A DNA stretch of 64,000 nucleotides from Candidatus Moraniibacteriota bacterium (GCA_017983435.1 JAGOBM010000001.1:47916-111915); one strand, 5' to 3'; numbered from the stretch's first letter, positions 11,727-51,731 are shown. A program made the numbers and translations. The notes: generated by a model from the sequence alone, not told the origin.

Positions 11727-11735
11727 CCCATAGAA

Positions 11736-38512: not shown

Positions 38513-39106
38513 CTATTTCTCGTGCTTGATCGCGCGGATCTCCTGGAGGAGGATCTCGATCGCCGATTCGATCTTCTCAATGCGCTTCTGGTCCTCGGTG
38601 CGCTCGACAGCGTCTTCCTGGTCATCCCTCTCGATTTCTACGCCGAGCTCATCGACATCCTCAGATATGTCCTCCACATCCTCGCTGATCTCTTTCACGT
38701 CTTCCTGGATGGTATCGATATCCTTGGAAATCTCCTCCACATCCTCGCTGATCTCTTCCACATCTTCCTGGATGGTATCGATATCCTTGGAAATCTCTTC
38801 CACATCCTCAGATATGTCTTCCACGTCTTCGCTCACTTCCTCGATCTGCTTGGCGTGCTGATTGACCGTCATCTGGATGAAGAGCGAGAGATAGATCGCT
38901 TCGAGTGAGACGAGAGTCGTCAGGATAAGCATGATCTGGTCGAACGAGAACCCGAACAGCTGCAGCGTGAAGATGCCGACGAAGAAGCAAGTGTGCAGGA
39001 TGAGCGAGGTCGGCGATCCGAGATACTGTGGGGCAGCGAGCGCGAGGGATTCGACGCGTGAGGCCTTCGGTTCCGTGACTTCCGGCAATGGGAGCGGGGT
39101 TTCCAT
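38513..39106 (-). CDS. DUF1003-family membrane protein with a C-terminal acidic tandem-repeat coiled-coil.
   Basis: FDQIMLILTTLVSLEAIYLSLFIQMTVNQHAKQ matches the DUF1003 core; repeated EDVEEISKDIDTIQ units follow. Confidence 0.6.
   Translation of the reverse strand: METPLPLPEVTEPKASRVESLALAAPQYLGSPTSLILHTCFFVGIFTLQLFGFSFDQIMLILTTLVSLEAIYLSLFIQMTVNQHAKQIEEVSEDVEDISEDVEEISKDIDTIQEDVEEISEDVEEISKDIDTIQEDVKEISEDVEDISEDVDELGVEIERDDQEDAVERTEDQKRIEKIESAIEILLQEIRAIKHEK
38640..38850. repeat. Tandem DNA repeats of about 66 nt, three or more units, inside the DUF1003 gene.
   Basis: Near-identical blocks ATCTCCTCCACATCCTCGCTGATCTCTTCCACATCTTCCTGGATGGTATCGATATCCTTGGAA. Confidence 0.75.
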
Positions 39107-39464
39107 AGATGATTGATAGTGAATGCTGGTAATCGGGCTCCCCGAGAGGAGGACTTTCAAGCAAAAAGCCCTCAATGCGGAGAGGTGATTGAGTCCCGTA
39201 AAAATGAGTAACGGAAAAAATATTTCATTTTTCCCTGGCTTAGTCAGGTGGGTCTCAGTTAGGAATCCGAGGATTCCATCGCTTCTCGTTCTGAAGGCTT
39301 TTCACTGCCAGTATACTCTTCTTTGGCTGTCTGTGCTATCCTGGCGCGGAAAGCCCTTTGGATAAAGCAAAAAAAGTATGTCGGATATCATCGTGCATGA
39401 TCGGACGCAGATTACTCCTGTACCGGGCCTCTGATAGTCGGAAATTCTCATATCTCTCCACCCT

Positions 39465-39893
39465 ATGAAAAAGATCAGACCGAGCATCGCGATACTCGAC
39501 ACCGAGATGGAACCGCTTGCATACCGGAGCCATGCGTTCCGTTGGCTGGACCGATGGCTGCCCGAGGTGGTCGATCTGGTCATGCATGCTTACTGGTATG
39601 CGACTGATCCATCGTATCGCCTGGTCATACAGCTCGACCGCCTGTTCCGTCGGCACTCTGACCGTATCGATCTCCTGCCGGAGTCCTCAGGGGAGCGCGG
39701 CTTCGTTCTTTCGCTCGACCGTCAGGCCGCCCTCTATTTCGTCCAGGATGGCGATCGGTTTTTCTACGAGGGTTGGAGTCTCGCCGGACCAGGAGAAGAG
39801 TACGAGACAGGGAGTCCGCTCGTCGCCGATACGCTCCGCGACGCGCACGAAGCGATCGCCGCGGAAGATACACCTGATCAGGTCAGTGAATAG
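39465..39893 (+). CDS. Hypothetical protein.
   Basis: ORF with ordinary composition. Confidence 0.4.
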   Translation: MKKIRPSIAILDTEMEPLAYRSHAFRWLDRWLPEVVDLVMHAYWYATDPSYRLVIQLDRLFRRHSDRIDLLPESSGERGFVLSLDRQAALYFVQDGDRFFYEGWSLAGPGEEYETGSPLVADTLRDAHEAIAAEDTPDQVSE

Positions 39894-40039
39894 TCCGGTA
39901 TTGTTGACATTCCCAGTATATTCAGTATAATGTTATTGCCCTTTGACAATCTCTGTTTCTCAGAAAGTCGCGGCTTTTTGTTGTTGAAGCTCGGTCGAGC
40001 TTCGCCAAAAGGGTGTTTTGGAAGTGAAAGGAGTCAATC

Positions 40040-40237
40040 ATGAGCAAAGACGTCTATCGTAATGGCGAACTTGTCGGTAAGATCGATGTTACACCTACGG
40101 CTAACGGTGGCACAAAGACAACGGAATCAGAAGTTCTTTCCCGAGATATTTTCGGGTTTGATACGGCAAAGATTACCACGGAAACTTACAGAGACGAGAA
40201 CAATAATGTTACTCGCATCGATGATCGTAAAAAATAA
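40040..40237 (+). CDS. Small hypothetical protein, 65 aa.
   Basis: Strong SD GAAAGGAG 7 nt upstream. Confidence 0.45.
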   Translation: MSKDVYRNGELVGKIDVTPTANGGTKTTESEVLSRDIFGFDTAKITTETYRDENNNVTRIDDRKK

Positions 40238-40597
40238 TCGGCATGGACGTAATTTGTCCATAACCGTATAAAGCAACTCTTCCGGATTCGCAGAAGTATC
40301 GGAGCGACGGAAGCCCCCTCGTACAAGAGTCGCCTGGCGACGAGACGGACAGCTCGTCTTGATCACCAGGTGCACGCATCGCACACAATAGTATCTGAGA
40401 CAGCTAGAATCCCGAGCAGTCTCCTCATCGCTTCATCAGAAGCGGCAGCAGTCAGTATCATCTGGCTGCTTTTTTCTTGCCCGATGGGGCTGCTCCGTGT
40501 TGGGGTGTCCCTATCGCAATACAGTTCTTTTCGTCTGAAACAGGGTGCCGGGTAGCCGATGTGATATGATGGACACATTGCTATTAAAGGAACAGCT

Positions 40598-40816
40598 ATG
40601 TTCGTTCGGCATCATCTCGTACGATATTTTACTCACAATATCGCTGTCGTCGTCGGCGTGGTCTTTGTCTGGCGAGGCATCTGGCATCTTCTCGATATCG
40701 TCGACATCAAGCTTTTCGACGGCAATCTGGCATATACCGCAGTAGGCGGTATTGTCCTCGGTCTGCTTATCCTGTATCTGCCGGACAAGGATCTGAAAGA
40801 GCTGGGAAATCTTTAG
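40598..40816 (+). CDS. Small membrane protein, 72 aa.
   Basis: Two TM helices; followed by a terminator. Confidence 0.35.
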   Translation: MFVRHHLVRYFTHNIAVVVGVVFVWRGIWHLLDIVDIKLFDGNLAYTAVGGIVLGLLILYLPDKDLKELGNL

Positions 40817-40828
40817 CGCCACTCACCC

Positions 40829-40858
40829 AGGGCTTCCACCGGAAGCCCTTTTATTTTT
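40829..40858 (+). terminator. Intrinsic terminator just outside the island's left border.
   Basis: GGGCTTCCaccGGAAGCCC followed by TTTTATTTTT. Confidence 0.7.
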
Positions 40859-40921
40859 ACTCAAAATGGGGTGTAATGCGGCTTGTGGAGCGGGGTATCA
40901 GGTGATAGGATATACGTAACA

Positions 40922-40941
40922 AGTTACGTAACTGATTACGT
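40922..40941. repeat. Left 20-bp direct repeat AGTTACGTAACTGATTACGT, containing the palindrome GTTACGTAAC; an extra inverted arm ACGTAACaaGTTACGT lies just upstream.
   Basis: Identical 20-mer at 49651..49670. Confidence 0.85.
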
Positions 40942-40943
40942 CT

Positions 40944-41120
40944 ATGACCAAGAAAATAACGGGGGATAAGAATACCAGAAAACTGACCAAGCTCGGGGGA
41001 AAGAGTATCGGGCTGACGCTTCCCATTGATATGGTCCGCGAGCTCGGCTGGAGAGAGAAACAGAAAGTTACAGTGAAGAGAGTAAGAGGAGGAGTTCTCA
41101 TCAAAGATTGGAAAGCTTAA
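40944..41120 (+). CDS. AbrB/MazE/SpoVT-like small DNA-binding protein, 58 aa (below the ORF-track size cutoff).
   Basis: Manual translation MTKKITGDKNTRKLTKLGGKSIGLTLPIDMVRELGWREKQKVTVKRVRGGVLIKDWKA; swapped-hairpin-like pattern. Confidence 0.45.
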   Translation: MTKKITGDKNTRKLTKLGGKSIGLTLPIDMVRELGWREKQKVTVKRVRGGVLIKDWKA

Positions 41121-41179
41121 ACGAATATTGATTAAGGATTTATCCCGCTAGATTCACCTGAGTGATCATTTAACTGGGA

Positions 41180-44100
41180 TTGGAAGAAATAGATTGTATG
41201 TCAGCAATAACAAACGTAGGGGCAAATACATTGTCATCTAATCTCAAAAGCATTCTTCCGAATTGTGATCGGGTAGATGCTCTTGTTGGTTATTTCTATT
41301 TTTCTGGATTCAAAGATCTTCATCATGAGCTCGAAGATAAGCAGATTCGGATTCTTGTCGGGATGGATATAGATAGGAAAATAATTGAGAAAGTGTCGAC
41401 ATTGAAGGATATTAATCTTGATTTCCATACGATCGAAACAAAAATTTCGTCTCGCTCAGGGGCGAAAGATGATTATATCGAAAACTTCTCAAAAGTTTTT
41501 AATGATACGGATTATTTTGATAATGAGGAGTCGCAAGTAGCCTTTGAAATATTTCTTGGGAAGATTCAGGATGGGAGTCTGCAGATTAAGAAGACTGCAC
41601 AAGCTAATCATTCTAAATTCTACATACTTCACAATAAACCGGAATTTTCCATGAATGGTATAACTCCGGGTATCGTTATTGAAGGTTCTAGTAATCTAAC
41701 CTTTTCTGGTTTGAAAGGACAAGGGGAGCATAATAGGATTTTGCAAGAAAAACATTATTATGATGATGATGTTCAGCGATTTGAAGAGTGCTGGAATGAT
41801 CCGGACAACATCATTATTACGGATTTGGACTCCTCAGAATCCTTTATCAAGGAGGTGAAGAGCAGAATCTGGCTTTATTCATTGCCGGATCCGCTTCTTA
41901 TGTACTACCGGGTGTTGAGCGAATACTTTTCCATCACGGAAGTCGAGGACATGAAGACCCCGAAGAATATAACCGGCGGGAAGTTTTCTGATCTTAAATA
42001 TCAGAAGGACGCGATCAATCTTGGTATTGACCGGATTAAGAAATTCGGCGGGGTGATAATTGCGGATGTTGTCGGACTCGGGAAAAGTATTGTGGCTTCC
42101 GCTATTGCTCATAACTTAGGCATGAAGACGCTTATCATTGCGCCACCACACCTTGAGAGCCAGTGGAAAGACTACATGGCAGAATTCGATTTCAAAGGTT
42201 TTGTGTATACGACTGGGAAAATCGAGGAGGCTCTCGAGAGACATGGGAGTGATGATGGAAAGTTATTGATTATTCTCGACGAAGCGCATAAGCACCGGAA
42301 CGAGGATACGGACAACTACAAAGTGCTCCATCGTCTCTGTGCTGGTCACTATGTGATGGCTCTTTCCGCGACTCCGTTCAATAATGATCCAAAAGATATC
42401 TATGCGCTCATAAAACTGTTCAGTACACCGGGACAGTCGACTATCCGGACCGTGGAGAATTTGAGCATGTCGTTCCATATGCTTTTCAAGCGATACAAGA
42501 CAGTGAGAAGGCAGCTCCGTAATACAGGAAAAGATGACAATGGCGAGGGGTCTACTATCAGAGTTGAACTTCATTCCATCGCTGATGAATTGCGTAGGAT
42601 GATAGAGCCGCTCATTATCCGGCGATCAAGATTGGATCTCGAGGAAATCGACGAGTACCGGAACGATCTGAAAGCGCAAGGAATTTCTTTCGCGAAGGTA
42701 CATGATCCAGAATTACTCGAGTACGAACTGGGAGATATGTTTGACCTGTATGTTGGGACACTCGAGAAAATCGCTCCGGAAGACAAGAGCACAAGTTTCA
42801 TCGGCGCGAGGTACAAGCCGGCTAGTTATATCCGGCAGGGGTCGGAGTTTATCAAGAAGCTTGTCGAGGGTGACGATGACGAGGATGGCGTATCTCCTGA
42901 AGAAAAACTCCATAGCATCAAACAGGCGCAGGTGAACATCACGAAGTTCATGCGAAGATTACTGGTGAGGCGCTTTGAAAGTTCAATCGGTGCGTTCAAA
43001 CTTTCACTGGGGAATATGATCACGTCTTCGGAAGTGATGCTGGATTGGTATGTGAATAGACATGAAGTTCCTATTTTCAAGAAGGGGGCGCTCCCGGATG
43101 TCGAAGATCTGAATGAGATGGACGATAAGGAACGGGAAGATCTTCTTTCAAAATTCGAGGATAAGGGACTCATCAGGATACCTGTTGCGGAACTTCAGCC
43201 GGAGTTTGAATCGCATTTGAGAAGCGATATAGTTCTGCTTAAAGAGATACAAGGGAAGTGGGCGCACAATTCTGATGATCCGAAATACGAATTCCTTAAG
43301 AAGAAATTGTCTGAAGCTATTTTTCAAGACAAGAAGCGGAAGATCATCATCTTTACGGAGTTTTCTGATACCGCCAATTACGTTTATCAAAAACTGAACG
43401 ATGATGGATTCAAGAGGGTATTCAAATATAGTTCGGAAGATTCCACTGATGAGAACAAGCGGATTATCCGGGCTAATTTTGATGCTGGGTTGGATGATGC
43501 GAAACAAACCGATGATTATGATGTCATTATCGCAACAGATGCGATTTCGGAAGGATTCAACCTGCACCGCGCCGGCATCGTCATCAACTATGATATTCCT
43601 TACAATCCGACGAGAGTGATCCAGCGTGTTGGTCGTATAAACCGCATCAACAAGAAGGTTTTTGACGAGTTGTATATATACAACTTTTTCCCAACTTTGA
43701 CCGGCGAGATGGAGACCCGGACGAAGGCGATCTCGACACTAAAGATGGATCTGATTCATACGCTTCTCGGGGAGGACACCAAGACATTGACATCCGATGA
43801 GGATTTGAAGAATTACTTCGCGAAGCAGTACAAGGAGGAAAATTCGAAAAGCGAGAAGCTCTCATGGGATGCTCCATACAGGAATACCTGGCTCTCCATA
43901 AAAGACGACCAGGATATAATGCGAAAAATCGCTGAAATTCCCCATCGATCAAGAATCGCAAGGAAAGCGAAAATTTCTGGTGTTGTGGCATTTGCCAAGA
44001 AGAGTGGAAACTACGTATTTGCGTTTGGTGAGAGTCCGGAGACTGTGCAGATTGTATCCCCGCAGATTGCTCTACCATTGTTCAATGAGGTCGCGGATTT

Positions 44101-44488
44101 AGAGCAACCTCTCCAGACGACTATCAACTTTGATCCAATTTATAAAATAGCCAAGGAACATATCTTTAAGGATAACACTCGATCGCCGGTTGATAGCGGA
44201 AGAAAACAGGACTCACTTAATAAAATTAAGATCCTTTCGGATAATTATCCTCAAGCCAAAGATCTTTGTATTGACCTGATTAGGGTTATTAAGGATCTTG
44301 ACGGTCTGCCGAACGGAGTGCTTAAGGAAATCGCAGAGCTAAAAATCGACAAGAACGATTTTGGAAAAGCGTTCCAGGAATTGAAGGAGCTCGTGCCACA
44401 CAAGTATCTCGAAAGCATATTTAGGACAGCGGATCGAGCCAATGACACTGGGAAGCTTATTGTCTTATCCGAAGAGTTGGTCGTATGA
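41180..44488 (+). CDS. Fusion of an N-terminal PLD-family (HKD) nuclease domain with an SNF2-family helicase, 1102 aa.
   Basis: HSKFYILHN...GSSNLT matches the HxK...GSxN PLD motif; SNF2 motifs ADVVGLGKS (I), ILDEAHKHRN (II), LSATPFNN (III), and helicase C-terminal motifs DAISEGFNLH and QRVGRINR. Confidence 0.85.
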   Translation: MEEIDCMSAITNVGANTLSSNLKSILPNCDRVDALVGYFYFSGFKDLHHELEDKQIRILVGMDIDRKIIEKVSTLKDINLDFHTIETKISSRSGAKDDYIENFSKVFNDTDYFDNEESQVAFEIFLGKIQDGSLQIKKTAQANHSKFYILHNKPEFSMNGITPGIVIEGSSNLTFSGLKGQGEHNRILQEKHYYDDDVQRFEECWNDPDNIIITDLDSSESFIKEVKSRIWLYSLPDPLLMYYRVLSEYFSITEVEDMKTPKNITGGKFSDLKYQKDAINLGIDRIKKFGGVIIADVVGLGKSIVASAIAHNLGMKTLIIAPPHLESQWKDYMAEFDFKGFVYTTGKIEEALERHGSDDGKLLIILDEAHKHRNEDTDNYKVLHRLCAGHYVMALSATPFNNDPKDIYALIKLFSTPGQSTIRTVENLSMSFHMLFKRYKTVRRQLRNTGKDDNGEGSTIRVELHSIADELRRMIEPLIIRRSRLDLEEIDEYRNDLKAQGISFAKVHDPELLEYELGDMFDLYVGTLEKIAPEDKSTSFIGARYKPASYIRQGSEFIKKLVEGDDDEDGVSPEEKLHSIKQAQVNITKFMRRLLVRRFESSIGAFKLSLGNMITSSEVMLDWYVNRHEVPIFKKGALPDVEDLNEMDDKEREDLLSKFEDKGLIRIPVAELQPEFESHLRSDIVLLKEIQGKWAHNSDDPKYEFLKKKLSEAIFQDKKRKIIIFTEFSDTANYVYQKLNDDGFKRVFKYSSEDSTDENKRIIRANFDAGLDDAKQTDDYDVIIATDAISEGFNLHRAGIVINYDIPYNPTRVIQRVGRINRINKKVFDELYIYNFFPTLTGEMETRTKAISTLKMDLIHTLLGEDTKTLTSDEDLKNYFAKQYKEENSKSEKLSWDAPYRNTWLSIKDDQDIMRKIAEIPHRSRIARKAKISGVVAFAKKSGNYVFAFGESPETVQIVSPQIALPLFNEVADLEQPLQTTINFDPIYKIAKEHIFKDNTRSPVDSGRKQDSLNKIKILSDNYPQAKDLCIDLIRVIKDLDGLPNGVLKEIAELKIDKNDFGKAFQELKELVPHKYLESIFRTADRANDTGKLIVLSEELVV

Positions 44489-47400
44489 TGAAATTCAACG
44501 AGAAATATCAACCCGATGATTTTCTGCAATTTTTGCAGGAGTTTTTACCGGAAGATTTTTCAGAAAAAGAGGAAGATATTGTCATCAACAAGGAACGATA
44601 TAAGGTGATAACCGAAGCTACGGTTCTTGGCTACTGTGGCTCGCTCGATCTTCATGTTTTGGAGATGGTCCATACCAGAGAAAAGGATCCTCGGGTTTCT
44701 ATTACTACAGATGCGTTCAAGATTCTTGCTGATAATTGGATTCATCGTGCGCTGGTCGTTTTTAGGAACAAGGATACCGAGAATTATCGGTTTTCATATT
44801 TGACTATCACTCTTGATCTAAATGATAAGAGTAAAGCAGTTAAAAAGTATTCAAATGCACGGAGATATTCTTTCTATCTAGGAGCGAATGCAAAGGTGCG
44901 GACGCCGGAGCAGCAGTTGATCAAGAAAGGGAGAATTAAGGATGTCGACGATCTGCTCACCCGGTTCTCGGTGGAGGTGGTCAATAAGCAATTCTATCTT
45001 GAGGTGGCCAAATTTTTTGATGAGCTTGTATCGGGTGAGGGTAAAAATTTGTCGCTTCCGAGCGTATCGCAGGAAAACGTAAATGTTAGGAAGAGCTTTG
45101 CTGTCCGGTTGATCGGCCGCCTGATGTTCTGCTGGTTTTTGAAACAGAAGAAATCTGAATCAGGCCAGCTTATTCCCGATGAATTGCTTTCTTCTGATGT
45201 CGCTAGGAAGACAAGTGGTTATTATCACGGCATTCTTGAGCCGCTCTTTTTTGAGGTGCTGAACACGAGTATTAACACTCGTGGCATCAGGAGCGAGTTG
45301 TTCGATAGGGTGCCGTATTTGAATGGTGGACTTTTTAATCCTCAGCCGGAGGATTACTACGAATTAGACGGAAGTACATTTTTTTCGAAGTATATCAATA
45401 CGCTTTCGATAAGTGATCAGTGGTTCGTGGATTTCTTCGAACTCCTCGAACTGTATAACTTCACCATCGATGAAAACACGGTGTTCGATCAGGAGCTTTC
45501 CGTGGATCCGGAGATGCTCGGGAGGATCTTCGAGAATTTGCTTGCCGAGATAAATCCGGAAACCGGGAGCAGCGAGCGGAAACGGACTGGGAGTTTTTAC
45601 ACCCCACGGCAGATCGTGGAGTATATGGTCGACCAGTCGCTCATAGAATACTTCAAGACCAAGACGAGCATCGACGAAGCGAAACTCGCCGCGCTTGTGA
45701 GTTACGATCTTAATGATGATGCTGGCTATCCATTGTCGGATGATGAGAAACAGAAAGTGGTGATGGCGATTGAGACCCTGAAACTTCTTGATCCGGCCTG
45801 TGGATCTGGCGCATACCCGATTGGGGCACTCCAGAAGATCGTTTATATCCTCCAGATCGTCGATCCGGACTGCAAACTCTGGCTTAATGAGAAGCTGAAA
45901 GACGTCCCAGATCTGTACAAACAGAAGATCATTAATGAAGTTCACTCAAACCCATTTGATTACACGCGCAAGCTCGATGTGATTAAAAATTCCATTTTCG
46001 GAGTGGATATCCAGCCGATTGCTGTGGACGTATCTCGTTTGCGGTGTTTTCTTACACTTGTTGTGGAATCGGAGATTGACGATATAAAGCCAAATCGAGG
46101 CATTGAACCACTGCCAAACCTTGATTTCAAATTCGTATGCGCCAATACGTTGATTGGTCTCCCGAAGGCGGAGTCGAGCGGATTGTTTGATGACCATTCT
46201 GGAATTTCAGAACTTTCAAAGATCATGTCAGAGTATTTCTCCTGTAATAGTCAGAGAAAAAATGAAATTCGTCTTAAGTTTCTTCATGTTCAAAAAGATA
46301 TCCTCGAGAAAACTATTTCTGCCTTTGGAAAAAATACTGGAGAGCTCACGCTGAGGCTCGCCACATGGAATCCGTTCAGTAATAATTCTAATAGCTGGTT
46401 TGATCCGGAGTGGATGTTTGGTATTACAGAAAAGTTCGATATTGTAATCGGAAATCCTCCTTATAATGTTAAATTATCTGGCGAGGAGAGAAAATTTTAT
46501 AAAGGAAATTATATAGGGGTAAAGTCTGGAAGACAGGATACCGCTGCAATTTTTGTTGAGGCAGCTTCGCGGTTTAGCAATAACGAATCTATTGTATGTT
46601 TTATCATCCCATACCGGCTGTTCTCTCGAAAAAGAAATCATGGAGCTTTCCAAGAGTATGTTCTGAAAAATTCTTCAATAAATGAGATAGTTTATCTAGG
46701 AAAGGATGCTGGGTTTGACACTGCAAAAGATGAATTTATGATCGTGGTGTTTTCGAAATATGAACACGATAATTCTATAAGAATTTGCAGTAAGCCCGAT
46801 TTCAAGAATCTAAATAGACTAGATTTTTCGCGTGTCGCCCAGTGTATATTCGAGAAAAGTAATGAAATTAATATAAATGTTTCTAAGTTTGACACGCGAA
46901 TTTTATCAAAGATAGAAAAAGGGAATCCCATTTTATCAGACATATGTTATGTCAAAGATGGAATAGTCCCGTATATTCGGGAGAAAATGATAAGCCAAAG
47001 AAAAATTGATGATCGTTATGTAAAGTTCGCTGGTGTTTCTGGAACGTATAAGCTTGATAGGTACGCATTTACCGCAGATGAGATGTATTTATGCTATGAC
47101 ATATTAGAAGCAAAAAAGTATATATCGGATATTAACGAATTAAGAAAAGTGCAGTTAAGGGATAAGGCAATCTTCTTGCAAGATGAGAAAATCATTACTT
47201 CTCAGAATAGCGCGAAATTAAAAGGATCGATTGATACTGAACAGTATTTCGTATCTAATTCGATACACAGTACATACCTCAAAGAAGAATGTAAGGACAA
47301 GTATAAACTATCCTTTATTTTAGGTTGTATCAATTCTTCCTTGCTAAATTATTACTATAACTCGAAGCGGTTGAAGGGAGTGGATTTGCACCCACAGATA

Positions 47401-47610
47401 TTAATTACAACATTGAAACTATTGCCGATTCCAGCGATCATTGGGGAGCGAGTTGTGGTGGTTAAAGAAGTTATTTCTTTAGTTGAGGATGTGATGAGAA
47501 TGAAAAAGTCTGGTACAAATACTGAGGATTTAGAAAACAAGATTGATGAGCTTGTTATGGATCTTTACGGACTCAATGATGAAGAAAAGGAAGTTGTAAG
47601 AAATTCGTAG
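44485..47610 (+). CDS. Gamma-class N6-adenine DNA methyltransferase of the Eco57I/MmeI/PglX type, with an N-terminal domain of about 350 aa and a C-terminal TRD-like region; 1041 aa. Translationally coupled to the upstream gene by an ATGA overlap.
   Basis: GSFYTPRQIVEYMV (motif X), LLDPACGSGAYP (motif I), VIGNPPYNV (motif IV). Confidence 0.85.
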   Translation: MMKFNEKYQPDDFLQFLQEFLPEDFSEKEEDIVINKERYKVITEATVLGYCGSLDLHVLEMVHTREKDPRVSITTDAFKILADNWIHRALVVFRNKDTENYRFSYLTITLDLNDKSKAVKKYSNARRYSFYLGANAKVRTPEQQLIKKGRIKDVDDLLTRFSVEVVNKQFYLEVAKFFDELVSGEGKNLSLPSVSQENVNVRKSFAVRLIGRLMFCWFLKQKKSESGQLIPDELLSSDVARKTSGYYHGILEPLFFEVLNTSINTRGIRSELFDRVPYLNGGLFNPQPEDYYELDGSTFFSKYINTLSISDQWFVDFFELLELYNFTIDENTVFDQELSVDPEMLGRIFENLLAEINPETGSSERKRTGSFYTPRQIVEYMVDQSLIEYFKTKTSIDEAKLAALVSYDLNDDAGYPLSDDEKQKVVMAIETLKLLDPACGSGAYPIGALQKIVYILQIVDPDCKLWLNEKLKDVPDLYKQKIINEVHSNPFDYTRKLDVIKNSIFGVDIQPIAVDVSRLRCFLTLVVESEIDDIKPNRGIEPLPNLDFKFVCANTLIGLPKAESSGLFDDHSGISELSKIMSEYFSCNSQRKNEIRLKFLHVQKDILEKTISAFGKNTGELTLRLATWNPFSNNSNSWFDPEWMFGITEKFDIVIGNPPYNVKLSGEERKFYKGNYIGVKSGRQDTAAIFVEAASRFSNNESIVCFIIPYRLFSRKRNHGAFQEYVLKNSSINEIVYLGKDAGFDTAKDEFMIVVFSKYEHDNSIRICSKPDFKNLNRLDFSRVAQCIFEKSNEININVSKFDTRILSKIEKGNPILSDICYVKDGIVPYIREKMISQRKIDDRYVKFAGVSGTYKLDRYAFTADEMYLCYDILEAKKYISDINELRKVQLRDKAIFLQDEKIITSQNSAKLKGSIDTEQYFVSNSIHSTYLKEECKDKYKLSFILGCINSSLLNYYYNSKRLKGVDLHPQILITTLKLLPIPAIIGERVVVVKEVISLVEDVMRMKKSGTNTEDLENKIDELVMDLYGLNDEEKEVVRNS

Positions 47611-47628
47611 GTATAGTTATAGTTTTGT

Positions 47629-48501
47629 ATGGAAAGTCAGCTTTTTTCAGAAAAATCTTTGGCGGATCATTTATTTGATATCTGTTATGATGGTCCATCT
47701 TTTGATGGTGCCATGGAAATTTCTTTGTTAAAAAATGAAATAGCTGGTCTTGATAATGCTTTACGTATAGCAGCGCAAGTTTTAGCAAAACATAAAAAAA
47801 TCGACTTTCGTTCTGGTGATGTAGAGATTTATATTGAGGCTTTTGAGAGGGGTTCTTTTAAGAAAAAAGTTAAAGTTGTTTTAAAATCTTTACAGGATTT
47901 AAACCAGTATCAAGGTGCGATAGCTCTGGGGGCGTTAGTTATTAGTGTGATGACATTCGTAAAACAACAGGAGACTTTAGATATAGACCATATACCACCG
48001 GAAATAATGGCTCAGTTTAAGACTCAAGTGGAGTATGATTTGTTACAGAATAGAGAATTTCTTAAGTCTGTTTCTGATATTGTTGCCCCATTGAATCAAA
48101 GCGGTGATCATTTACATATAGCCGTCCCGAAAAATTCTGAAACCGATATAGATTACTTGGATAAAGAAAAATTTATTAAATTAGCACTACCCAGCGTGGT
48201 TGAAGGGGTTGATGGCGATAAACACGAGATAATCGTAGGGCGGATTAATCGCGTTGATCTCGATGCTACTATTCGCCATATTGGATTCAAGGTAAAAGGA
48301 GAGGGGTCTTCGATTCCGGCAACGCTTTCAACTCAGGTAAAATCTTCTGTTAGTATGAATGACTTACTGGGGAAGTGGGTGGAAATGGGTGCTTTAACTA
48401 CGTATAAAGGCGATATCAGAGAGCATATCGAGATTGAGGATATAAAAATAGTAGAACAACAAAAACTCCCCATTGATTTTAATAATGAAGGAATCGAGTG
48501 A
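47629..48501 (+). CDS. Hypothetical protein, 290 aa, island cargo.
   Basis: ORF with AT-rich codon usage matching the island. Confidence 0.5.
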   Translation: MESQLFSEKSLADHLFDICYDGPSFDGAMEISLLKNEIAGLDNALRIAAQVLAKHKKIDFRSGDVEIYIEAFERGSFKKKVKVVLKSLQDLNQYQGAIALGALVISVMTFVKQQETLDIDHIPPEIMAQFKTQVEYDLLQNREFLKSVSDIVAPLNQSGDHLHIAVPKNSETDIDYLDKEKFIKLALPSVVEGVDGDKHEIIVGRINRVDLDATIRHIGFKVKGEGSSIPATLSTQVKSSVSMNDLLGKWVEMGALTTYKGDIREHIEIEDIKIVEQQKLPIDFNNEGIE

Positions 48502-48546
48502 TTTGGCGTTAAAAAATTCGTTGTAAGTTAGGGATTACTAGGCAAT

Positions 48547-49368
48547 ATGCGTTTTTCTCAAAGAATAGGTAAATCTTCAATAAGGACAGAAATTCAAGTT
48601 GATTCGATGGATGATCGACTAAGGAACCGACTTTTTAATGTTGTGAAAGACTATATAGATCAACAATTGGCCTTCTGGGATGCGGGACGATATATTAAGC
48701 ATGATTTTATTGTTCAATATTGTGATTGTTTTGGTAAGTTACATAAGAGTGATGACTACGAAGATTTTTTTAAAGAATTATTCCAAAAAATATTTGTTAA
48801 TGAAGATATTTTTTTCTTTTATGATTTTATAGAATTTGTAGTTCGGCGGGGCGCACATAGTAAAGAAATTCTTATTCATGAATTCAATCGTATTTTTGAA
48901 GAAGAAAAATCAGCGTACAAACTTGATATTAGTGGGTCTTTAATACAAATTACAGATGATATTGAGCTTGAAGAGATTGATTTGGCAATAGCGAGTGCGA
49001 GCGAGTATAAGAGTGTACAAGAGCATTTGGAGAAGGCTAGGGGATTTTTCTCTAGCCGTGAAAATCCTGATTACAAGAAATCTATCGAAGAATCTGTTCA
49101 TGCTATAGAGGCAATGGCTAAAATAGTAGTAAAAGATAAAAATGCTATTTTGAGTGATGCGTTGAAGAAGATAAATGATTTGCACCCAGCTTTGAATCAG
49201 AGTTTGCAAAAGTTGTATGCCTTTGCCGGGGATGCAAGCGGTATTCGTCATAGTAACAAAGAGCCTGTTGATTCTGAAAAAGAACATTCTGTAGGAATTG
49301 GTGAGGCAAGAATGATTCTTGTTTTGAGTCACTCAATGATTAATTATTTGAAAGAGAAGTTTTTGTAA
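48547..49368 (+). CDS. Hypothetical protein, 273 aa, possibly AbiJ-N-terminal-like plus a HEPN-like C-terminus (ARMILVLSH, Rx6H).
   Basis: N-terminus MRFSQRIGKSSIR and the C-terminal Rx6H motif; weak manual similarity only. Confidence 0.45.
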   Translation: MRFSQRIGKSSIRTEIQVDSMDDRLRNRLFNVVKDYIDQQLAFWDAGRYIKHDFIVQYCDCFGKLHKSDDYEDFFKELFQKIFVNEDIFFFYDFIEFVVRRGAHSKEILIHEFNRIFEEEKSAYKLDISGSLIQITDDIELEEIDLAIASASEYKSVQEHLEKARGFFSSRENPDYKKSIEESVHAIEAMAKIVVKDKNAILSDALKKINDLHPALNQSLQKLYAFAGDASGIRHSNKEPVDSEKEHSVGIGEARMILVLSHSMINYLKEKFL

Positions 49369-49652
49369 TGAAAAAGAATGATAAGAGAGAATTGAATCGA
49401 GGATTTGGGCTTACTATTATAGGGGCCTTGCTTGGATTTTTCATAAGCGTGACAGCATCGGGAGTGTTTGAAATTTCAATGCATGGCCGGTCTGGTCGGG
49501 CAGGCTGGATTACTCTTTGTTATGGTGTAGTCTCTTTGTTTCTGATTTCGTTATTTTCGTACCGTATAGAAAATTTAGATCGGGTAAAAAACATGTCCGA
49601 TGGAGAAATTTTTAAAGATTATTTGAAAACCGTGCTTCATTTTAAGAAATAG
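49368..49652 (+). CDS. Small two-TM membrane protein, 94 aa; its ATG overlaps the upstream TAA.
   Basis: TAATG overlap; two hydrophobic helices. Confidence 0.4.
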   Translation: MKKNDKRELNRGFGLTIIGALLGFFISVTASGVFEISMHGRSGRAGWITLCYGVVSLFLISLFSYRIENLDRVKNMSDGEIFKDYLKTVLHFKK

Positions 49653-49670
49653 TTACGTAACTGATTACGT
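49651..49670. repeat. Right 20-bp direct repeat AGTTACGTAACTGATTACGT.
   Basis: Identical to 40922..40941. Confidence 0.85.
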
Positions 49671-49678
49671 AAACCGGT

Positions 49679-50074
49679 ATGCAAGCCTGCGAGACGGTCG
49701 GGGAATATATGGAGGGGCTGCCTGAGGGAGTGCGGGCGGAGTTCACTCTGCTCTGGCAGACAGTCCGGGAGCTGGTACCAGGGGGCGAGGAAGTGATCCG
49801 CTACGGGATGCCGACTATGCGGGTGGTGGGGAAGAATCTCGTCCACTGCGCCGTCATGAAAGAGCATTTCGGATTCTATCCGACCCCTTCGGGCGTGAAG
49901 GCATTTGAGAGCGAGCTTCTTGGGAAATATCGGTATTCCGAGGGTGCTATCCAGTTTCCGTTCGGCGAGCGGCTGCCGCTCCCGCTTGTCCGCAAGATCG
50001 TGCGCTTCCGCCTCTCCGAAGAATCTTCCCTCCCAGAATCCCTCGAAATCCCACCCTCCAAAAAAGTAACATAA
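49679..50074 (+). CDS. DUF1801/YdhG-like protein.
   Basis: Pattern HCAVMKEHFGFYPTPSGVKAFESELL; 131 aa. Confidence 0.55.
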   Translation: MQACETVGEYMEGLPEGVRAEFTLLWQTVRELVPGGEEVIRYGMPTMRVVGKNLVHCAVMKEHFGFYPTPSGVKAFESELLGKYRYSEGAIQFPFGERLPLPLVRKIVRFRLSEESSLPESLEIPPSKKVT

Positions 50075-50075
50075 T

Positions 50076-50097
50076 TATACGGCCGTGGAATTATGTT
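50076..50097. promoter_or_regulatory. Palindromic element TAATTATACGGCCGTGGAATTATG upstream of the PaaX-like gene; a related copy lies downstream of it.
   Basis: The arm CGTGGAATTATG is shared with 50759..50783. Confidence 0.4.
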
Positions 50098-50154
50098 ACA
50101 ATATAAAAAAGAGAAGATGTATTTTTCGGATACGATATAAGGTGCAGAAGATGT

Positions 50155-50760
50155 ATGTATAAGTTCGGCCCGGTTCAACAGAAGCTCCTCCTCCTGCTTG
50201 TCGCTGGAATCGGGTTGGGATTGGAGACTTCCTCTATCCGCTATTATCAGAAGCTCGGAGCGATAGTGAGGGAATGGAAACGTATCGATCAGCGAAGTAT
50301 CAAGCGTTCCGTAAGGCGCTTGTGCAGTGAGAAGCTGGTCAGGGAAATCATCCAGCCTGATGGATCATTCAAGCTCGTGCTTACGGAGGAGGGGAAGAGG
50401 CAGGCTCGCATCCAATTTCTTTTCGACAATTCGATCCGTTTCAAGAATTCGAGGCGATGGGATAAGAAATGGCGTATCGTCATGTTTGATATCCCGGAAA
50501 AGGAGAGAGGATTCCGCGATATTCTGCGCGAGCATCTGCGTGAATTGAATTTTTATAAGCTGCAGCAGAGTGTCTTCGCTTCCCCGAATCCGTGCGAGAA
50601 GCAGATAGCGGAACTGGTATCGTTGTATAGAGCGGAATCGTTGGTGCGTGTAATGACAGTCGATTGGATCGATAACGAGAAGAAGCTCAGGGATTATTTT
50701 TTTGGCCAGAAATCTTCCCGGAAAATTACTCAGAAAACCGAATATGAAACGGTATCATAA
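50155..50760 (+). CDS. PaaX-like transcriptional regulator: N-terminal wHTH plus a C-terminal PaaX_C-like domain.
   Basis: WDKKWRIVMFDIPEKERGFRDILREHLRELNFYKLQQSVFASP resembles the PaaX C-terminal signature. Confidence 0.45.
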   Translation: MYKFGPVQQKLLLLLVAGIGLGLETSSIRYYQKLGAIVREWKRIDQRSIKRSVRRLCSEKLVREIIQPDGSFKLVLTEEGKRQARIQFLFDNSIRFKNSRRWDKKWRIVMFDIPEKERGFRDILREHLRELNFYKLQQSVFASPNPCEKQIAELVSLYRAESLVRVMTVDWIDNEKKLRDYFFGQKSSRKITQKTEYETVS

Positions 50761-50783
50761 TTCCACGGTCGTGGAATTATGAT
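50759..50783. promoter_or_regulatory. Perfect palindrome AATTCCACGGTCGTGGAATT (20 bp) overlapping the stop of the PaaX-like gene.
   Basis: Seen directly; related to the upstream copy. Confidence 0.4.
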
Positions 50784-50986
50784 ACTTTTAAAAATGCGGG
50801 ATTATTCTTAATGGGGACAGATATGGAAAAATCCTACCAGCAGTGCCAGTCGTGCAGCAGATCCCGAAGAGCTGGTAAGATAGGCTGATCCGGAGCGGTA
50901 AGTAGATCGAATCAGGGGCTTGACTTCCGGGTGTATACTGGAAGAGTCAATGAGGGGGGGTGTAATTCGTAACGCAGAACATGCTT

Positions 50987-51214
50987 ATGGAAACTACGCC
51001 AGTGAGACGTCTGTATCGGAGCGCTACGGAGCGGGTCTGCGCGGGAGTGTGCGGCGGTCTGGGGGAATACTGGGCGATCGACCCGGTCGTGCTGCGGCTC
51101 TTGTGGACATTTATCACGGTCTTTACCGGGTTTGCGCCCGGCATCATCGTCTATATCCTCGCGGTCTTCATCATCCCAGTGAAGCCTCTGGAACTGCCAG
51201 TTGCTCATCAATAA
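50987..51214 (+). CDS. PspC-domain membrane protein.
   Basis: LYRSATERVCAGVCGGLGEYWAIDPVVLRLLW PspC signature followed by a TM helix. Confidence 0.7.
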   Translation: METTPVRRLYRSATERVCAGVCGGLGEYWAIDPVVLRLLWTFITVFTGFAPGIIVYILAVFIIPVKPLELPVAHQ

Positions 51215-51425
51215 TTTTTAACAGGACGAGTATGGATAAGATCAAAATCGAGAATCATGCGTGCTCAGGCGGCATATGGATAGTGGCCTGGATGTTCACC
51301 GTCGGATTCTTGCAGCTGACATTCTGGCAGGGAGTGCAGGCGATCGTCATCTGGCCGTACTATCTCGGCGATGCTGTCCGTCCGATGTTTTTCGAGTAGA
51401 TCAGGAACTTTTCCGTGGGGTGCTT

Positions 51426-51731
51426 ATGCCAAAAGATATATTCAAAATACAGGCAGCAGTATGGCTGTATCCGGGGGAGAATGCCAACTGGCATTTTGTA
51501 AATGTATCGAAAGAGGTATCAGCTGAGATCCGAGAGCGTTTCGGGGGGAAATCGAGAGGGTGGGGATCCTTGCCGGTGACGGTGACTCTCGGTCAGACGA
51601 CTTGGGATACTTCGATTTTTCCCGATAAGAAATCCGCTACCTATCTCCTGCCGCTCAAGGCGGCGGTGCGAACCAAGGAGACGGTTCGGGCTGGTGACAG
51701 CGTATCCTTATCGATACGGATCCGCGCCTAA
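51426..51731 (+). CDS. DUF1905-family small protein.
   Basis: GSLPVTVTLGQTTWDTSIFP pattern; 101 aa. Confidence 0.5.
   Translation: MPKDIFKIQAAVWLYPGENANWHFVNVSKEVSAEIRERFGGKSRGWGSLPVTVTLGQTTWDTSIFPDKKSATYLLPLKAAVRTKETVRAGDSVSLSIRIRA

What the first reader, a model, noticed from the sequence alone, without database searches (positions are those of the whole stretch)
40922..49670. AT-rich 8.75-kb island bounded by perfect 20-bp direct repeats with a palindromic core
The 20-mer AGTTACGTAACTGATTACGT occurs exactly twice, at 40922..40941 and 49651..49670. Between the copies the sequence is clearly AT-rich (roughly 35-40% GC by eye), while the flanks are roughly 60% GC. Each repeat contains the perfect palindrome GTTACGTAAC. 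The left border also carries an extra inverted arm (ACGTAACaaGTTACGT), as expected for a recombinase core site. Every gene inside is on the plus strand, several are translationally coupled, and all have AT-rich codon usage. There is no integrase, transposase or tRNA at either border, so how the element inserted is unknown. The 20-bp repeats could be att remnants of a site-specific recombination event or an unusually long target duplication.
Basis: seen in the sequence. Interest (0 to 1): 0.85.

Follow-up and report, generated by a model that had tools for sequence, protein, structure and literature searches.

The report
Defence-gene hotspot behind a small regulator
The two identical 20-base repeats are most likely binding sites for a small AbrB/MazE-type regulator conserved in Candidate Phyla Radiation bacteria, not insertion scars, and the AT-rich DNA between them is imported anti-phage cargo sitting in a hotspot directly behind that regulator's gene.

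Summary
AGTTACGTAACTGATTACGT occurs exactly twice (40922, 49651). The interval is about 41% GC against about 55% outside, and all its genes are on the + strand.

The att/target-duplication reading does not hold.
- The same 20-mer occurs at unrelated loci in other CPR genomes.
- It is two 12-nt units of a TTACGTAA palindrome array. That array sits between a -10-like box and the start codon of a 58-aa AbrB/MazE-like gene (40944-41120).
- In 59 relatives the array sequence changes together with a loop motif of the protein. I infer an autoregulatory operator.
- The right copy is a second such site, 8 nt before DUF1801.

The imported DNA starts after the regulator gene, not at the left repeat. Homology to prophage-borne copies of the helicase-methylase pair begins at about 41183. 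In a related population the identical regulator protein and upstream genes are followed by several different restriction-modification cargos, which diverge at its stop codon. A sister strain carries a different last gene against the same right-hand site.

Best reading: a lineage-wide defence hotspot anchored on a controller-like regulator gene, with cargo probably swapped by homologous recombination in conserved flanks. That mechanism is inferred. Operator-targeted recombination is not excluded.

The parts
40829..40858 (+). Terminator-like hairpin plus T-run ending the upstream 72-aa membrane-protein gene (40598-40816). This is the left conserved flank.
   Evidence: 9-bp stem, 6 GC pairs, TTTATTTTTA tail.
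40883..40911 (+). Promoter-like site: TTGTGG, 17-nt spacer, TAGGAT. The -10-like box directly abuts the operator array.
   Evidence: Read from the sequence. The same TAGAAT/TAGGAT/TAAAAT box precedes the repeat array upstream of most homologues. It fell below the threshold of the generic scan.
40910..40945 (+). Left operator array: three 12-nt units (ATATACGTAACA, AGTTACGTAACT, GATTACGTCTAT) that run into the ATG of the regulator gene. It contains the left 20-mer (40922-40941).
   Evidence: conserved architecture.
40944..41120 (+). 58-aa AbrB/MazE/SpoVT-family DNA-binding protein. I infer it is the autoregulator and the conserved left anchor of the hotspot.
   Evidence: Pfam PF04014, 28.2 bits against a cut-off of 24.7. 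282 homologous clusters, named AbrB/MazE/SpoVT by NCBI in Moraniibacteriota MAGs. AF2 model and Foldseek top hits are AbrB-N, MazE and SpoVT. No toxin partner is present.
41111..41185 (+). About 67-nt hairpin element inserted in the 3' end of the regulator gene, with the 8-nt GATTGGAA duplicated. The second copy restores the ancestral gene end GATTGGAAGAAATAG just before the helicase start.
   Evidence: Related hairpins with a compensatory change occur in L020, L025, L028 and L030. In L029 the same inverted-repeat ends enclose a GIY-YIG gene.
41198..44488 (+). PLD(HKD)-nuclease / SNF2-helicase protein (1096 aa from the ATG at 41198). First cargo gene.
   Evidence: 70-90% aa homologues occur across CPR phyla. 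Nucleotide homology starts at 41183-41197.
44485..47610 (+). Eco57I/MmeI-type N6-adenine DNA methyltransferase with a TaqI_C specificity domain. Its start overlaps the helicase stop.
   Evidence: 61% aa identity to the partner gene in prophage loci L104/L105, and nucleotide homology ends at about 46464, before the specificity domain.
47629..48501 (+). 290-aa protein of unknown function, in the most AT-rich part of the island.
   Evidence: No Pfam hit. Only a sub-threshold NCBIfam LAPAL hit.
48547..49368 (+). AbiJ_NTD4-domain protein, matching the PADLOC candidate single-gene defence system PDC-S32.
   Evidence: Pfam 3.5e-26; PADLOC PDC-S32 3.2e-68.
49368..49652 (+). 94-aa predicted membrane protein, overlapping the previous gene by 1 nt. 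Its TAG stop overlaps the first two bases of the right 20-mer. This is the last cargo gene.
   Evidence: Replaced by a different gene in sister strain L100.
49651..49674 (+). Right operator site: two 12-nt units (AGTTACGTAACT, GATTACGTAAAC), 8 nt of spacer before the DUF1801 start codon. It contains the right 20-mer. Conserved DNA resumes at 49646.
   Evidence: The identical junction is in L100, with homology starting at 49646.
49679..50074 (+). DUF1801 (YdhG-like) gene at 60% GC. This is the right conserved flank, syntenic with TspO-DUF1801-TfoX in relatives.

Best explanation
The host is a Candidate Phyla Radiation bacterium, probably Moraniibacteriota-like. The 20-mer is the consensus two-unit core of the operator for a small AbrB/MazE-fold transcription factor, the 58-aa protein encoded at 40944-41120.

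The left copy is part of a three-unit, 12-nt-phased array between the gene's -10-like box and its start codon. Binding there would repress the regulator's own promoter and, with it, the genes transcribed behind it. This is functionally like a restriction-modification controller (C) protein. The right copy is a second site for the same protein, just in front of DUF1801. It is either that gene's operator or a roadblock/relic at the end of the cargo.

The AT-rich DNA is imported defence cargo: a PLD-SNF2 helicase plus an Eco57I-type methylase whose closest relatives are prophage-borne, then an AbiJ-like/PDC-S32 gene and small partners. It lies in a lineage-wide hotspot that begins at the regulator's stop codon and here ends at the next operator.

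Cargo is most likely exchanged by homologous recombination in the conserved flanks after DNA uptake. The left flank is the regulator gene. The right flank is the operator plus DUF1801.

Shown directly: the repeats, the composition shift, the conserved architecture, the co-variation, the variable cargo behind an identical regulator, and the junction positions. Inferred: DNA binding, repression, co-transcription, and the recombination route.
For: - Motif conservation elsewhere. The exact 20-mer occurs in 6 GTDB contigs (about 1.1 expected from 596 Gb x 2 / 4^20, my calculation), and 5 of them are CPR contigs at non-homologous loci: upstream of ispG; between rarA and pepA; between TspO and a membrane-protein gene; directly upstream of the orthologous regulator in Doudnabacteria; and a mis-binned duplicate.
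- Operator architecture. Upstream of most of the 59 non-redundant homologues lies a -10-like box followed by 2-3 tandem repeats that end at the ATG. 42 of the 52 detected repeats have 12-nt spacing.
- Co-variation. The protein loop motif tracks the repeat sequence: GKTS goes with TA(C/A)(T/A)TA-type repeats in 12/14 loci, SGNGS with TTCAGNAA in 3/4, and GG(K/R)S with TACGTA. Secondary sites a few kb downstream carry the lineage's own motif (L053, L089, L091).
- Location. By a crude ORF call, 28 of 37 tandem TTACGTAA arrays are intergenic, against 14% intergenic sequence overall.
- Fold. Pfam PF04014 is above its cut-off. Foldseek top hits are AbrB-N, MazE, SpoVT and Sso7c4.
- Hotspot. The identical regulator protein P0240 occurs in 21 contigs with the same upstream genes. 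The places with readable downstream sequence show at least five different cargos, and they diverge at the stop codon.
- Cargo content. R-M families top the list downstream of the gene and are absent from the upstream top 25. By phmmer labelling, 14/43 loci have R-M genes downstream against 1/41 upstream. GC is lower downstream in 18/24 loci. Other cargos include type I R-M plus Mrr, type III-like, type II and DpnI.
- Cargo origin. The helicase-methylase pair is 83-90% identical (aa) to copies next to terminase and serine recombinase genes. Those copies are led by an HTH_17 gene or by no called leader, never by the regulator, and nucleotide homology begins at 41183-41197.
- Right edge. Sister strain L100 has a different last gene against the same site, with homology starting at 49646.
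- Recombination. Window versus L020 is mosaic, with a breakpoint inside the regulator gene.
Against: - No binding, transcription or recombination was measured. Everything about function is inferred from sequence.
- The co-variation is confounded by shared ancestry.
- Only two arrays occur in this 64-kb window, so the regulon is small or local.
- I could not find a convincing -35/-10 in front of the right-hand site, and the sequence upstream of it differs between the window and L100.
- In L009 and L012 an array lies between convergent genes. In L089 and L091 the right-hand copy is part of an approximately 85-nt direct repeat (terminator, -10 and two units) with no co-oriented gene behind it. 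Both look more like duplication or recombination products than promoters.
- In the P0240 lineage no array was seen at the right side of the cargo within 10 kb, so the 'bounded by two operators' layout is not general.
- The junctions at the stop codon are very precise. Homologous recombination explains that only if donors also carry the regulator gene.
Confidence: 0.68

Rival explanations
1. The repeats are recombination sites after all. A unit made of regulator gene plus cargo integrates by recombination between an operator-like site on a circular intermediate and an operator in the chromosome. This could be Campbell-type RecA-mediated recombination, or the work of a recombinase encoded elsewhere. 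Either would leave direct repeats at both ends.
For: The repeats bracket exactly 'regulator gene ... last cargo stop codon'. L089 and L091 have an approximately 85-nt direct repeat around regulator plus cargo, with nothing co-oriented behind the right copy. L029 shows a truncated and a complete regulator gene in tandem. The sister-strain breakpoint lies 5 nt from the right repeat. Arrays also occur between convergent genes in L009 and L012.
Against: There is no recombinase in or near the island. The regulator gene stays put while the cargo changes in the P0240 population, with divergence at its stop codon. The cargo's closest relatives lack both the regulator and the motif. L089 and L091 share both repeat copies but differ in cargo, so the repeat is older than the last swap. 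The exact 20-mer also sits in front of housekeeping genes in other genomes.
Confidence: 0.14
2. The palindromic arrays are bound by some other factor, or are a lineage-specific promoter or insulator element, and their link to the 58-aa protein is only positional.
For: Binding was not tested. The same motif occurs far from any regulator gene (L018 and L019). TTACGTAA-type palindromes are generic dimer sites.
Against: The repeat sequence changes together with the protein's loop motif across lineages, and the array always abuts this gene's start codon. The protein belongs to a DNA-binding fold whose members bind repeated sites in their own promoters (established knowledge of AbrB, MazE and MraZ).
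Confidence: 0.12
3. The repeats are a target-site duplication from a transposition event, or a chance or assembly artefact.
For: They are direct repeats at the two ends of a compositionally foreign segment.
Against: 20 bp is far beyond known duplications. There is no transposase and there are no terminal inverted repeats. The same sequence was assembled independently in eight Logan and NCBI contigs from five samples or assemblies. The motif is conserved in other genomes.
Confidence: 0.02

Closest known systems
Defence-island hotspots flanked by conserved core genes (described in E. coli, Pseudomonas, Acinetobacter and P2/P4 elements; e.g. PMC9122126 and PMC11723918, seen as titles and abstracts)
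   Same: The flanks are conserved and the defence cargo between them varies among close relatives. The cargo is compositionally foreign. No dedicated recombinase sits at the site.
   Different: The left anchor here is a 58-aa AbrB-fold regulator gene, and its stop codon is the junction. The cargo appears to be placed under that gene's operator-controlled promoter. The host is a CPR bacterium. The hotspot recurs across several CPR lineages with lineage-specific operator sequences.
Restriction-modification controller (C) proteins and their C-boxes, including the Mollicutes HsdC that binds (GTGTTAN5)2 direct repeats and also host promoters (PMC5282649, abstract read)
   Same: A small regulator is encoded first in the operon and co-oriented with the R-M genes. 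Tandem repeated operator units lie immediately upstream of its own start codon. Extra sites occur at unrelated host promoters.
   Different: C proteins are helix-turn-helix (Xre-type) proteins, whereas this one has the AbrB/MazE swapped-hairpin fold. It precedes R-M systems of types I, II, IIG and III as well as non-R-M cargo, and in some genomes no defence genes at all (L015, L016). Regulation was not tested.
AbrB / MazE / SpoVT / MraZ family DNA-binding proteins
   Same: There is a Pfam PF04014 match, and the predicted beta-alpha-beta-beta core gives AbrB, MazE, SpoVT and Sso7c4 as the best structural matches. As with MraZ, it is a leader gene bound (by inference) to tandem repeats in its own promoter.
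   Different: There is no MazF/PemK toxin partner here. The protein is only 58 aa, with no C-terminal domain. The operator units are 12-nt-phased TTACGTAA palindromes.
Integrase-mediated genomic islands and integron cassettes
   Same: Direct repeats lie at the two ends of foreign, co-oriented, promoter-proximal genes.
   Different: There is no integrase, IntI, attC-like structure or tRNA target. The repeat is a conserved motif found at other loci. The left repeat is not at the cargo junction.
Split type ISP / type IIG-like restriction-modification modules, and DISARM DrmD or BREX PglX components
   Same: A PLD-nuclease/SNF2 translocase is paired and translationally coupled with an Eco57I/MmeI-type N6A methylase that carries a specificity domain.
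   Different: All matches to the named systems fall far below curated cut-offs. There are no DrmA/B/C or BrxA/B/C/L partners. The closest relatives are encoded in CPR prophage-like regions.

Membership tests
Genomic island integrated by site-specific recombination (att-flanked) | Integrase or recombinase gene in or next to the island | tested here: not met
   No recombinase family among the island proteins or in the gene table for 39.7-60 kb.
Genomic island integrated by site-specific recombination (att-flanked) | Direct repeats lie exactly at the junctions between foreign and resident DNA | tested here: not met
   The right repeat meets this: homology to L100 resumes at 49646. The left repeat does not. 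Foreign DNA starts at 41183-41197, and in relatives at the regulator's stop codon, which is 180-260 nt inside the left repeat.
Genomic island integrated by site-specific recombination (att-flanked) | The repeat is specific to the insertion, with a single copy at the empty site in relatives | tested here: not met
   The exact 20-mer is present at unrelated loci in other CPR genomes, twice in one MAG. No empty site was found. All exact-protein contigs carry the island, and the sister strain has other cargo.
Genomic island integrated by site-specific recombination (att-flanked) | Excision or circular forms | not testable with these tools
   Needs read mapping in SRR11088476, SRR11088471 and SRR8648016.
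AbrB/MazE/SpoVT DNA-binding domain proteins | Sequence match to the family model above the curated threshold | tested here: met
   PF04014: 28.2 bits against 24.7, E 1.8e-6. Most homologues carry PF04014 and are named AbrB/MazE/SpoVT by NCBI.
AbrB/MazE/SpoVT DNA-binding domain proteins | Swapped-hairpin beta-barrel fold | tested here: inconclusive
   The AF2 monomer has pLDDT 67 overall and above 80 for residues 31-58. The best Foldseek hits are AbrB-N, MazE, SpoVT and Sso7c4, but E is 0.14 or worse. A PDB sequence search found nothing significant.
AbrB/MazE/SpoVT DNA-binding domain proteins | Sequence-specific DNA binding | not testable with these tools
   Only inferred, from the position of the repeat and its co-variation with the protein.
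MazEF-type toxin-antitoxin module | Adjacent MazF/PemK (or other) toxin gene | tested here: not met
   The next gene is the 1096-aa helicase, and there is no toxin family in the island. In the P0240 lineage Fic genes lie upstream of the regulator gene. I did not pursue this.
Restriction-modification controller (C) proteins | Helix-turn-helix (Xre-like) fold | tested here: not met
   The fold is AbrB/MazE-type.
Restriction-modification controller (C) proteins | Encoded upstream of and co-oriented with R-M genes, with a repeated operator upstream of its own start | tested here: met
   Window. R-M families are enriched downstream.
Restriction-modification controller (C) proteins | Controls timing or level of nuclease expression | not testable with these tools
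   Needs reporter or transcript data.
Defence-island hotspot flanked by conserved genes | Same flanking genes with different defence cargo among close relatives | tested here: met
   P0240 population: identical regulator and upstream genes, with at least five cargos. L100 has different cargo next to the same right flank. L089 and L091 share flanks but differ in cargo.
Defence-island hotspot flanked by conserved genes | Cargo made of recognised defence genes | tested here: met
   PADLOC and Pfam hits for the window cargo. R-M types I, II, IIG and III, plus Mrr, DpnI, Schlafen, AAA_15 and DUF4238, in relatives.
DISARM / BREX / named PLD anti-phage systems | Whole-protein score above the curated cut-off, and the system's partner genes | tested here: not met
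   DrmD 138 bits against 610; phospholipD_antiphage 108 against 1100; PglX 63 against 500. No partner genes are present.
Integron gene cassettes | IntI integrase and attC sites | tested here: not met
   No integrase. The repeats are short tandem palindromes at the 5' side of genes, not attC-like imperfect hairpins at 3' ends.

The most novel reading that the evidence does not exclude
The AbrB-type leader gene and its 12-nt-phased operator form a dedicated, CPR-wide platform for capturing and exchanging defence cassettes. New R-M and other defence modules, including phage-derived ones, would be joined precisely to the regulator's stop codon and delimited by operator copies. The operator, or the conserved 3' end of the gene, would itself be the recombination target. 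That would make it an integron-like system with no recognisable integrase, in bacteria with minimal genomes.
Probability: 0.15. Interest if true: 0.85.

Novelty: new variant of a known kind. Interest (0 to 1): 0.55.

Why it matters
CPR/Patescibacteria have tiny genomes, few known regulators and few CRISPR systems, and they are thought to rely heavily on restriction-modification. A single conserved 58-aa regulator gene may mark where their defence genes are kept and also control them. If so, three things follow.
- It gives a simple handle for finding new defence systems in uncultured CPR genomes: look directly behind this gene.
- It is a candidate non-HTH analogue of R-M controller proteins.
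- It is a tractable test case for how defence cargo is swapped without a dedicated recombinase.

For the scan itself there is a caution. Perfect direct repeats flanking a foreign segment can be regulatory sites rather than insertion scars.

Tried and rejected
- Empty-site search. Exact-protein look-ups of both flanking genes and of the regulator returned only contigs of the same strain, all carrying the island. The only near relative (L100, 570 nt) has different cargo, not an empty site.
- Chance or dispersed repeat. The window holds only the two arrays plus four isolated TACGTAA half-sites.
- Viral collection. The 20-mer hits two related contigs inside a 706-aa ORF, which I take as chance.
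- tRNA or RNA-gene target. None is near. The Rfam scan found only the tRNA cluster at 11 kb and a DUF3800-II RNA at 54 kb.
- Hairpin after the regulator gene as a terminator or attenuator. Its folding energy is not better than shuffles in the window or in L025 (z = 0.19), and there is no T-run. I reinterpreted it as a small inserted element with an 8-nt duplication. No further copies were found in the window.
- MazEF toxin-antitoxin reading. There is no toxin gene.
- PDB sequence search with the regulator profile gave nothing significant.
- Generic sigma-70 scan. Counts were not above shuffles, and it did not report the TTGTGG/TAGGAT pair.
- Literature. No paper was found that describes an AbrB-type R-M controller or a CPR defence hotspot. 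The library is incomplete, so absence is weak evidence.
- Reference-set bias. The phmmer labelling used references taken from downstream genes, so it favours downstream hits. The unbiased comparison is the Pfam tally.

Full report
**1. The observation**

The 20-mer AGTTACGTAACTGATTACGT occurs exactly at 40922-40941 and 49651-49670. None is expected in shuffles. The extra inverted arm (TACGTAAC-AA-GTTACGTA, 40913-40930) is real.

GC is 0.34-0.47 (mean about 0.41) between 41 and 49 kb. It is mostly 0.51-0.60 elsewhere, so the flanks are about 55% rather than 60%. The right edge is abrupt, 0.40 to 0.60 at about 49700. The left edge is softer.

Six long ORFs fill the interval, all on the + strand, and two pairs overlap. 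The nearest tRNAs are at 11 kb. No recombinase family is recorded for 39.7-60 kb. The sequence was assembled identically in several independent Logan and NCBI contigs, so it is not an assembly artefact.

**2. What the genes are**

| Coordinates | Product | Evidence |
|---|---|---|
| 40944-41120 | 58-aa AbrB/MazE/SpoVT-family protein (PF04014 above cut-off) | |
| 41198-44488 | PLD(HKD)-SNF2 helicase | |
| 44485-47610 | Eco57I/MmeI-type N6A methylase with TaqI_C specificity domain | |
| 47629-48501 | unknown, 290 aa | |
| 48547-49368 | AbiJ_NTD4 protein, PADLOC candidate system PDC-S32 (E 3e-68) | |
| 49368-49652 | 94-aa membrane protein | |

None of the helicase or methylase matches reaches the curated cut-offs of DISARM, BREX or the named PLD anti-phage protein. 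To the right lie DUF1801 (60% GC) and a PaaX_M/Cas2-like gene.

The closest named relatives of DUF1801, the helicase and the regulator are from Candidatus Moranbacteria/Moraniibacteriota and other Parcubacteria. The host is therefore a CPR bacterium.

**3. The 20-mer is not specific to this island**

A scan of 185,579 species genomes found the exact 20-mer in six contigs. My estimate of the chance expectation is about 1.1 (596 Gb x 2 strands / 4^20). Five of the six are CPR:
- a Moraniibacteriota MAG, where it lies between TspO and a membrane-protein gene, 500 nt downstream of an orthologue of the 58-aa gene;
- another Moraniibacteriota MAG, where it occurs on two different contigs, upstream of ispG and between rarA and a pepA-like gene;
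- a 'Bdellovibrionales' contig, identical to one of these and probably mis-binned;
- a Doudnabacteria MAG, where three 12-nt units (ATTACGTAATT|AATTACGTAATC|AGTTACGTAACT) sit directly upstream of the orthologous 58-aa gene.

In all of these the conserved block is AGTTACGTAACTGATTACGTAA(C/T). Two copies that are identical over 20 nt therefore need no duplication event. Functional constraint on a consensus site is enough.

**4. The motif behaves as the operator of the 58-aa protein**

I fetched 80 metagenome loci encoding relatives of the protein, which reduce to 59 non-redundant loci once the window and the GTDB and NCBI loci are added.
- Upstream of most of them is a -10-like box (TAGAAT, TAGGAT or TAAAAT) followed by two or three tandem repeats that run up to the ATG.
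- 42 of the 52 detected repeats have a 12-nt period.
- The repeat sequence differs between lineages and tracks a loop motif of the protein. RKLTKLGGKS goes with T(T)ACGTAA, RKITRxGKTS with TACTTAC/TAAGTA/TACATA types (12 of 14), and KSGNGS with TTCAGNAAT (3 of 4). Shared ancestry inflates this association, but it is what an autoregulatory operator predicts.
- Secondary sites a few kb downstream carry the lineage's own motif (L053, L089, L091).
- By a crude ORF call, 28 of 37 tandem TTACGTAA arrays are intergenic, against 14% intergenic sequence.
- The AF2 model (pLDDT above 80 for residues 31-58) finds AbrB-N, MazE, SpoVT and Sso7c4 as its best structural matches, with weak E-values as expected for a 58-residue monomer of an obligate dimer.

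In the window the layout is TTGTGG (40883), a 17-nt spacer, TAGGAT (40906), then ATATACGTAACA|AGTTACGTAACT|GATTACGTCTAT, then G of the ATG. The array lies downstream of the -10-like box and fills the leader. That is the classical position for a repressor (inference).

**5. Where the foreign DNA really begins and ends**

*Left side.*
- The helicase has 70-90% identical homologues across CPR phyla.
- The closest ones (83-90%) lie in prophage-like regions, next to terminase, ParB-methylase and large serine recombinase genes. They are preceded by an HTH_17/MerR gene or by no called leader gene, never by the 58-aa gene, and they have no TTACGTAA arrays nearby.
- Nucleotide homology to them starts at 41183-41197, just before the helicase ATG. 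It ends at about 46464, before the methylase specificity domain.
- In a related population the identical regulator protein (P0240, 89% identical to the window's) occurs in 21 contigs. The upstream genes are the same in all of them: a ligT-like gene, RhuM-Fic and Fic.
- Behind the gene there are at least five different cargos, including type I R-M plus DUF87, SNF2 plus Schlafen plus methylase, and RadC plus MutH plus Dcm plus Vsr. The sequences diverge at or directly after the stop codon.

The regulator gene is therefore the last conserved element on the left, not part of the insert.

In the window the ancestral junction (GATTGGAAGAAATAG-attgt-ATG) is still visible at 41178-41200. A 67-nt hairpin element has since been inserted into the gene's 3' end, with an 8-nt duplication.

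*Right side.* A sister strain (L100; DUF1801 96% aa, 97% nt) has a different gene ending in the same ...aaaTAG|TTACG junction. Homology to the window begins at 49646, 5 nt before the 20-mer.

So the variable segment runs from the regulator's stop codon to the next operator.

**6. The site is a hotspot across the lineage**

- Pfam families found in the first four ORFs downstream of the regulator gene are dominated by R-M functions: N6_N4_Mtase 8, ResIII 7, N6_Mtase 6, Eco57I 5, MmeI 4, DpnI 3, plus HsdR, AAA_15 and RadC.
- The upstream ORFs show Fic, RhuM and housekeeping families instead.
- By phmmer labelling, 14/43 loci have R-M genes downstream against 1/41 upstream. The reference set for this labelling was biased towards downstream genes.
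- GC is lower downstream in 18 of 24 loci.
- Individual loci carry type I R-M plus Mrr (L023), type II plus toxSAS-like (L025), type III-like (L009, L093, L028), Dam/DpnI (L053) and DUF4238 (L089).
- Some genomes have the gene with no defence cargo (L015, L016).
- Several loci repeat the window's layout of operator, regulator, cargo, operator: L023, L025, L093, L058 and L009. The P0240 lineage does not. Its array heads a four-gene operon 3 kb upstream.

**7. Mechanism**

Most likely (confidence about 0.68), the 58-aa protein represses its own promoter through the 12-nt-phased array, and thereby represses the cargo transcribed behind it.
- Cargo genes start 0-10 nt after its stop codon in the P0240 lineage and can use the GGAAGGA in its 3' end as a ribosome-binding site.
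- This is analogous to an R-M controller protein. The Mollicutes HsdC, which binds (GTGTTAN5)2 repeats and also host promoters, is the nearest described parallel.
- The right-hand site is a second target in front of DUF1801.
- Cargo turnover is best explained by homologous recombination in the conserved flanks. The window and L020 are about 95% identical over the 3' two-thirds of the regulator gene plus the hairpin, but diverged in its 5' third and in the operator. That places a breakpoint inside the gene.

DNA binding, repression, co-transcription and the recombination route are all inferences.

**8. What does not fit neatly**

- L089 and L091 have an approximately 85-nt direct repeat (terminator, -10 box and two operator units) around regulator plus cargo, with no co-oriented gene after the right copy. 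Because the two relatives share both copies but differ in cargo, the repeat predates the last swap.
- L029 has a truncated and a complete regulator gene in tandem, separated by a GIY-YIG gene bounded by the hairpin element's arms.
- Arrays lie between convergent genes in L009 and L012.
- I could not identify a convincing promoter in front of the right-hand site in the window.

These points keep alive the minority view (about 0.14) that operator-containing sequences are themselves recombination substrates.

**9. Comparison with known systems, and novelty**

It works like a core-gene-flanked defence hotspot combined with a C-protein-like controller. It is not a member of the att/integrase island class, because three defining features were tested and not met. 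It is not a MazEF module, a C-protein family member (different fold), an integron, or a named DISARM/BREX system.

I found no paper describing an AbrB-type leader of R-M systems or a CPR defence hotspot. I rate it a new variant of a known kind.

**10. Verdict**

The att/target-duplication part is not. Interest is 0.55: the original puzzle has an ordinary regulatory answer, but the answer exposes a conserved, previously undescribed regulator-anchored defence hotspot in CPR bacteria that can be tested directly.

Noticed in passing
window 41111-41185; L020 8038-8128; L025 about 10172-10215; L028, L030; L029 9125-9430: A small hairpin element (arms GGTTTACCCCGTTAAAT ... ATTTAACTGGGG, with a compensatory variant CCCCGTTACAT/ATGTAACTGGGG in L030) sits right after, or inside the 3' end of, the regulator gene in several lineages. 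In the window it is flanked by an 8-nt duplication, GATTGGAA. In L029 the same arms enclose an 86-aa GIY-YIG gene inserted after codon 20 of a truncated regulator copy. It looks like a GIY-YIG mobile element and its miniature derivatives, targeting this gene.
   Followed up: partly
window 50062-50099 and 50752-50789; L009 221-263 and 9440-9475: 38-nt perfect-stem hairpins (GTAACATAATTCCACGGCCGTGGAATTATGTTAC type) flank the PaaX_M/Cas2-like gene at 50155-50760. They recur after the PaaX-like gene and before TspO in a Moranbacteria relative. This is a repeated palindromic element of unknown role, possibly a terminator or a REP-like element.
   Followed up: no
L102 1328-8761; L103 1945-15603; L104/L105 1167-19807: The closest homologues of the helicase-methylase pair lie in CPR prophage-like regions, next to the terminase large subunit, a ParB_N-methylase and large serine recombinases. 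They are followed by uncharacterised 1160-aa and 664-aa proteins. The module may serve the phage (anti-defence or superinfection exclusion) before being domesticated.
   Followed up: partly
L106-L111, about 3 kb upstream of the regulator gene (e.g. L106 7005-7025): In the P0240 lineage the TTACGTAACCCGTTACGTAAC array heads a four-gene operon (ligT-like 2',5'-RNA-ligase-fold gene, RhuM-Fic, Fic_N-Fic, then the regulator). The regulator might double as an antitoxin-like partner of Fic/Doc proteins, as in composite mazE-doc modules (PMC1626090, title only).
   Followed up: no
L089 9888-9968 and 12868-12948; L091 347-417 and 2257-2330: An approximately 85-nt direct repeat (terminator hairpin, -10 box, two operator units) flanks regulator plus cargo in two relatives that carry different cargo. 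No co-oriented gene follows the right copy.
   Followed up: partly
window 54071-54132 (- strand): Rfam DUF3800-II RNA motif (65 bits against a gathering score of 43.2), next to the DUF3800 gene at 53405-53953. A DUF3800 gene also lies inside the type III-like cargo of L009.
   Followed up: no
window 38513-39175 (- strand), repeats at 38651-38860: A 220-aa ORF with 63-nt and 21-nt tandem repeats encoding acidic EDVEEISKDIDTIQ-type units, just left of the variable region.
   Followed up: no
window 50155-54525: The stretch right of DUF1801 also looks accessory: a PaaX_M/Cas2-like gene, PspC, DUF1905, a Bro-N protein, a LexA/S24-like repressor and DUF3800. In relatives, DUF1801 is followed directly by TfoX_N. 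The variable region therefore probably extends beyond the island as reported.
   Followed up: partly
L008 (SRR8648016), equal to window 39460-40903: A Logan contig from another sample ends at 40903, just before the -10 box and operator. This may reflect strain variation starting there, or just low coverage.
   Followed up: no
L017 (CAYGEA010000006.1, labelled Bdellovibrionales): The sequence around the 20-mer is identical to Moraniibacteriota contig L018. The contig is probably mis-binned.
   Followed up: no
window 11147-11730: A cluster of five tRNA genes (Ala, Ile, Met, Met, Asp) with no adjacent rRNA genes in the window.
   Followed up: no
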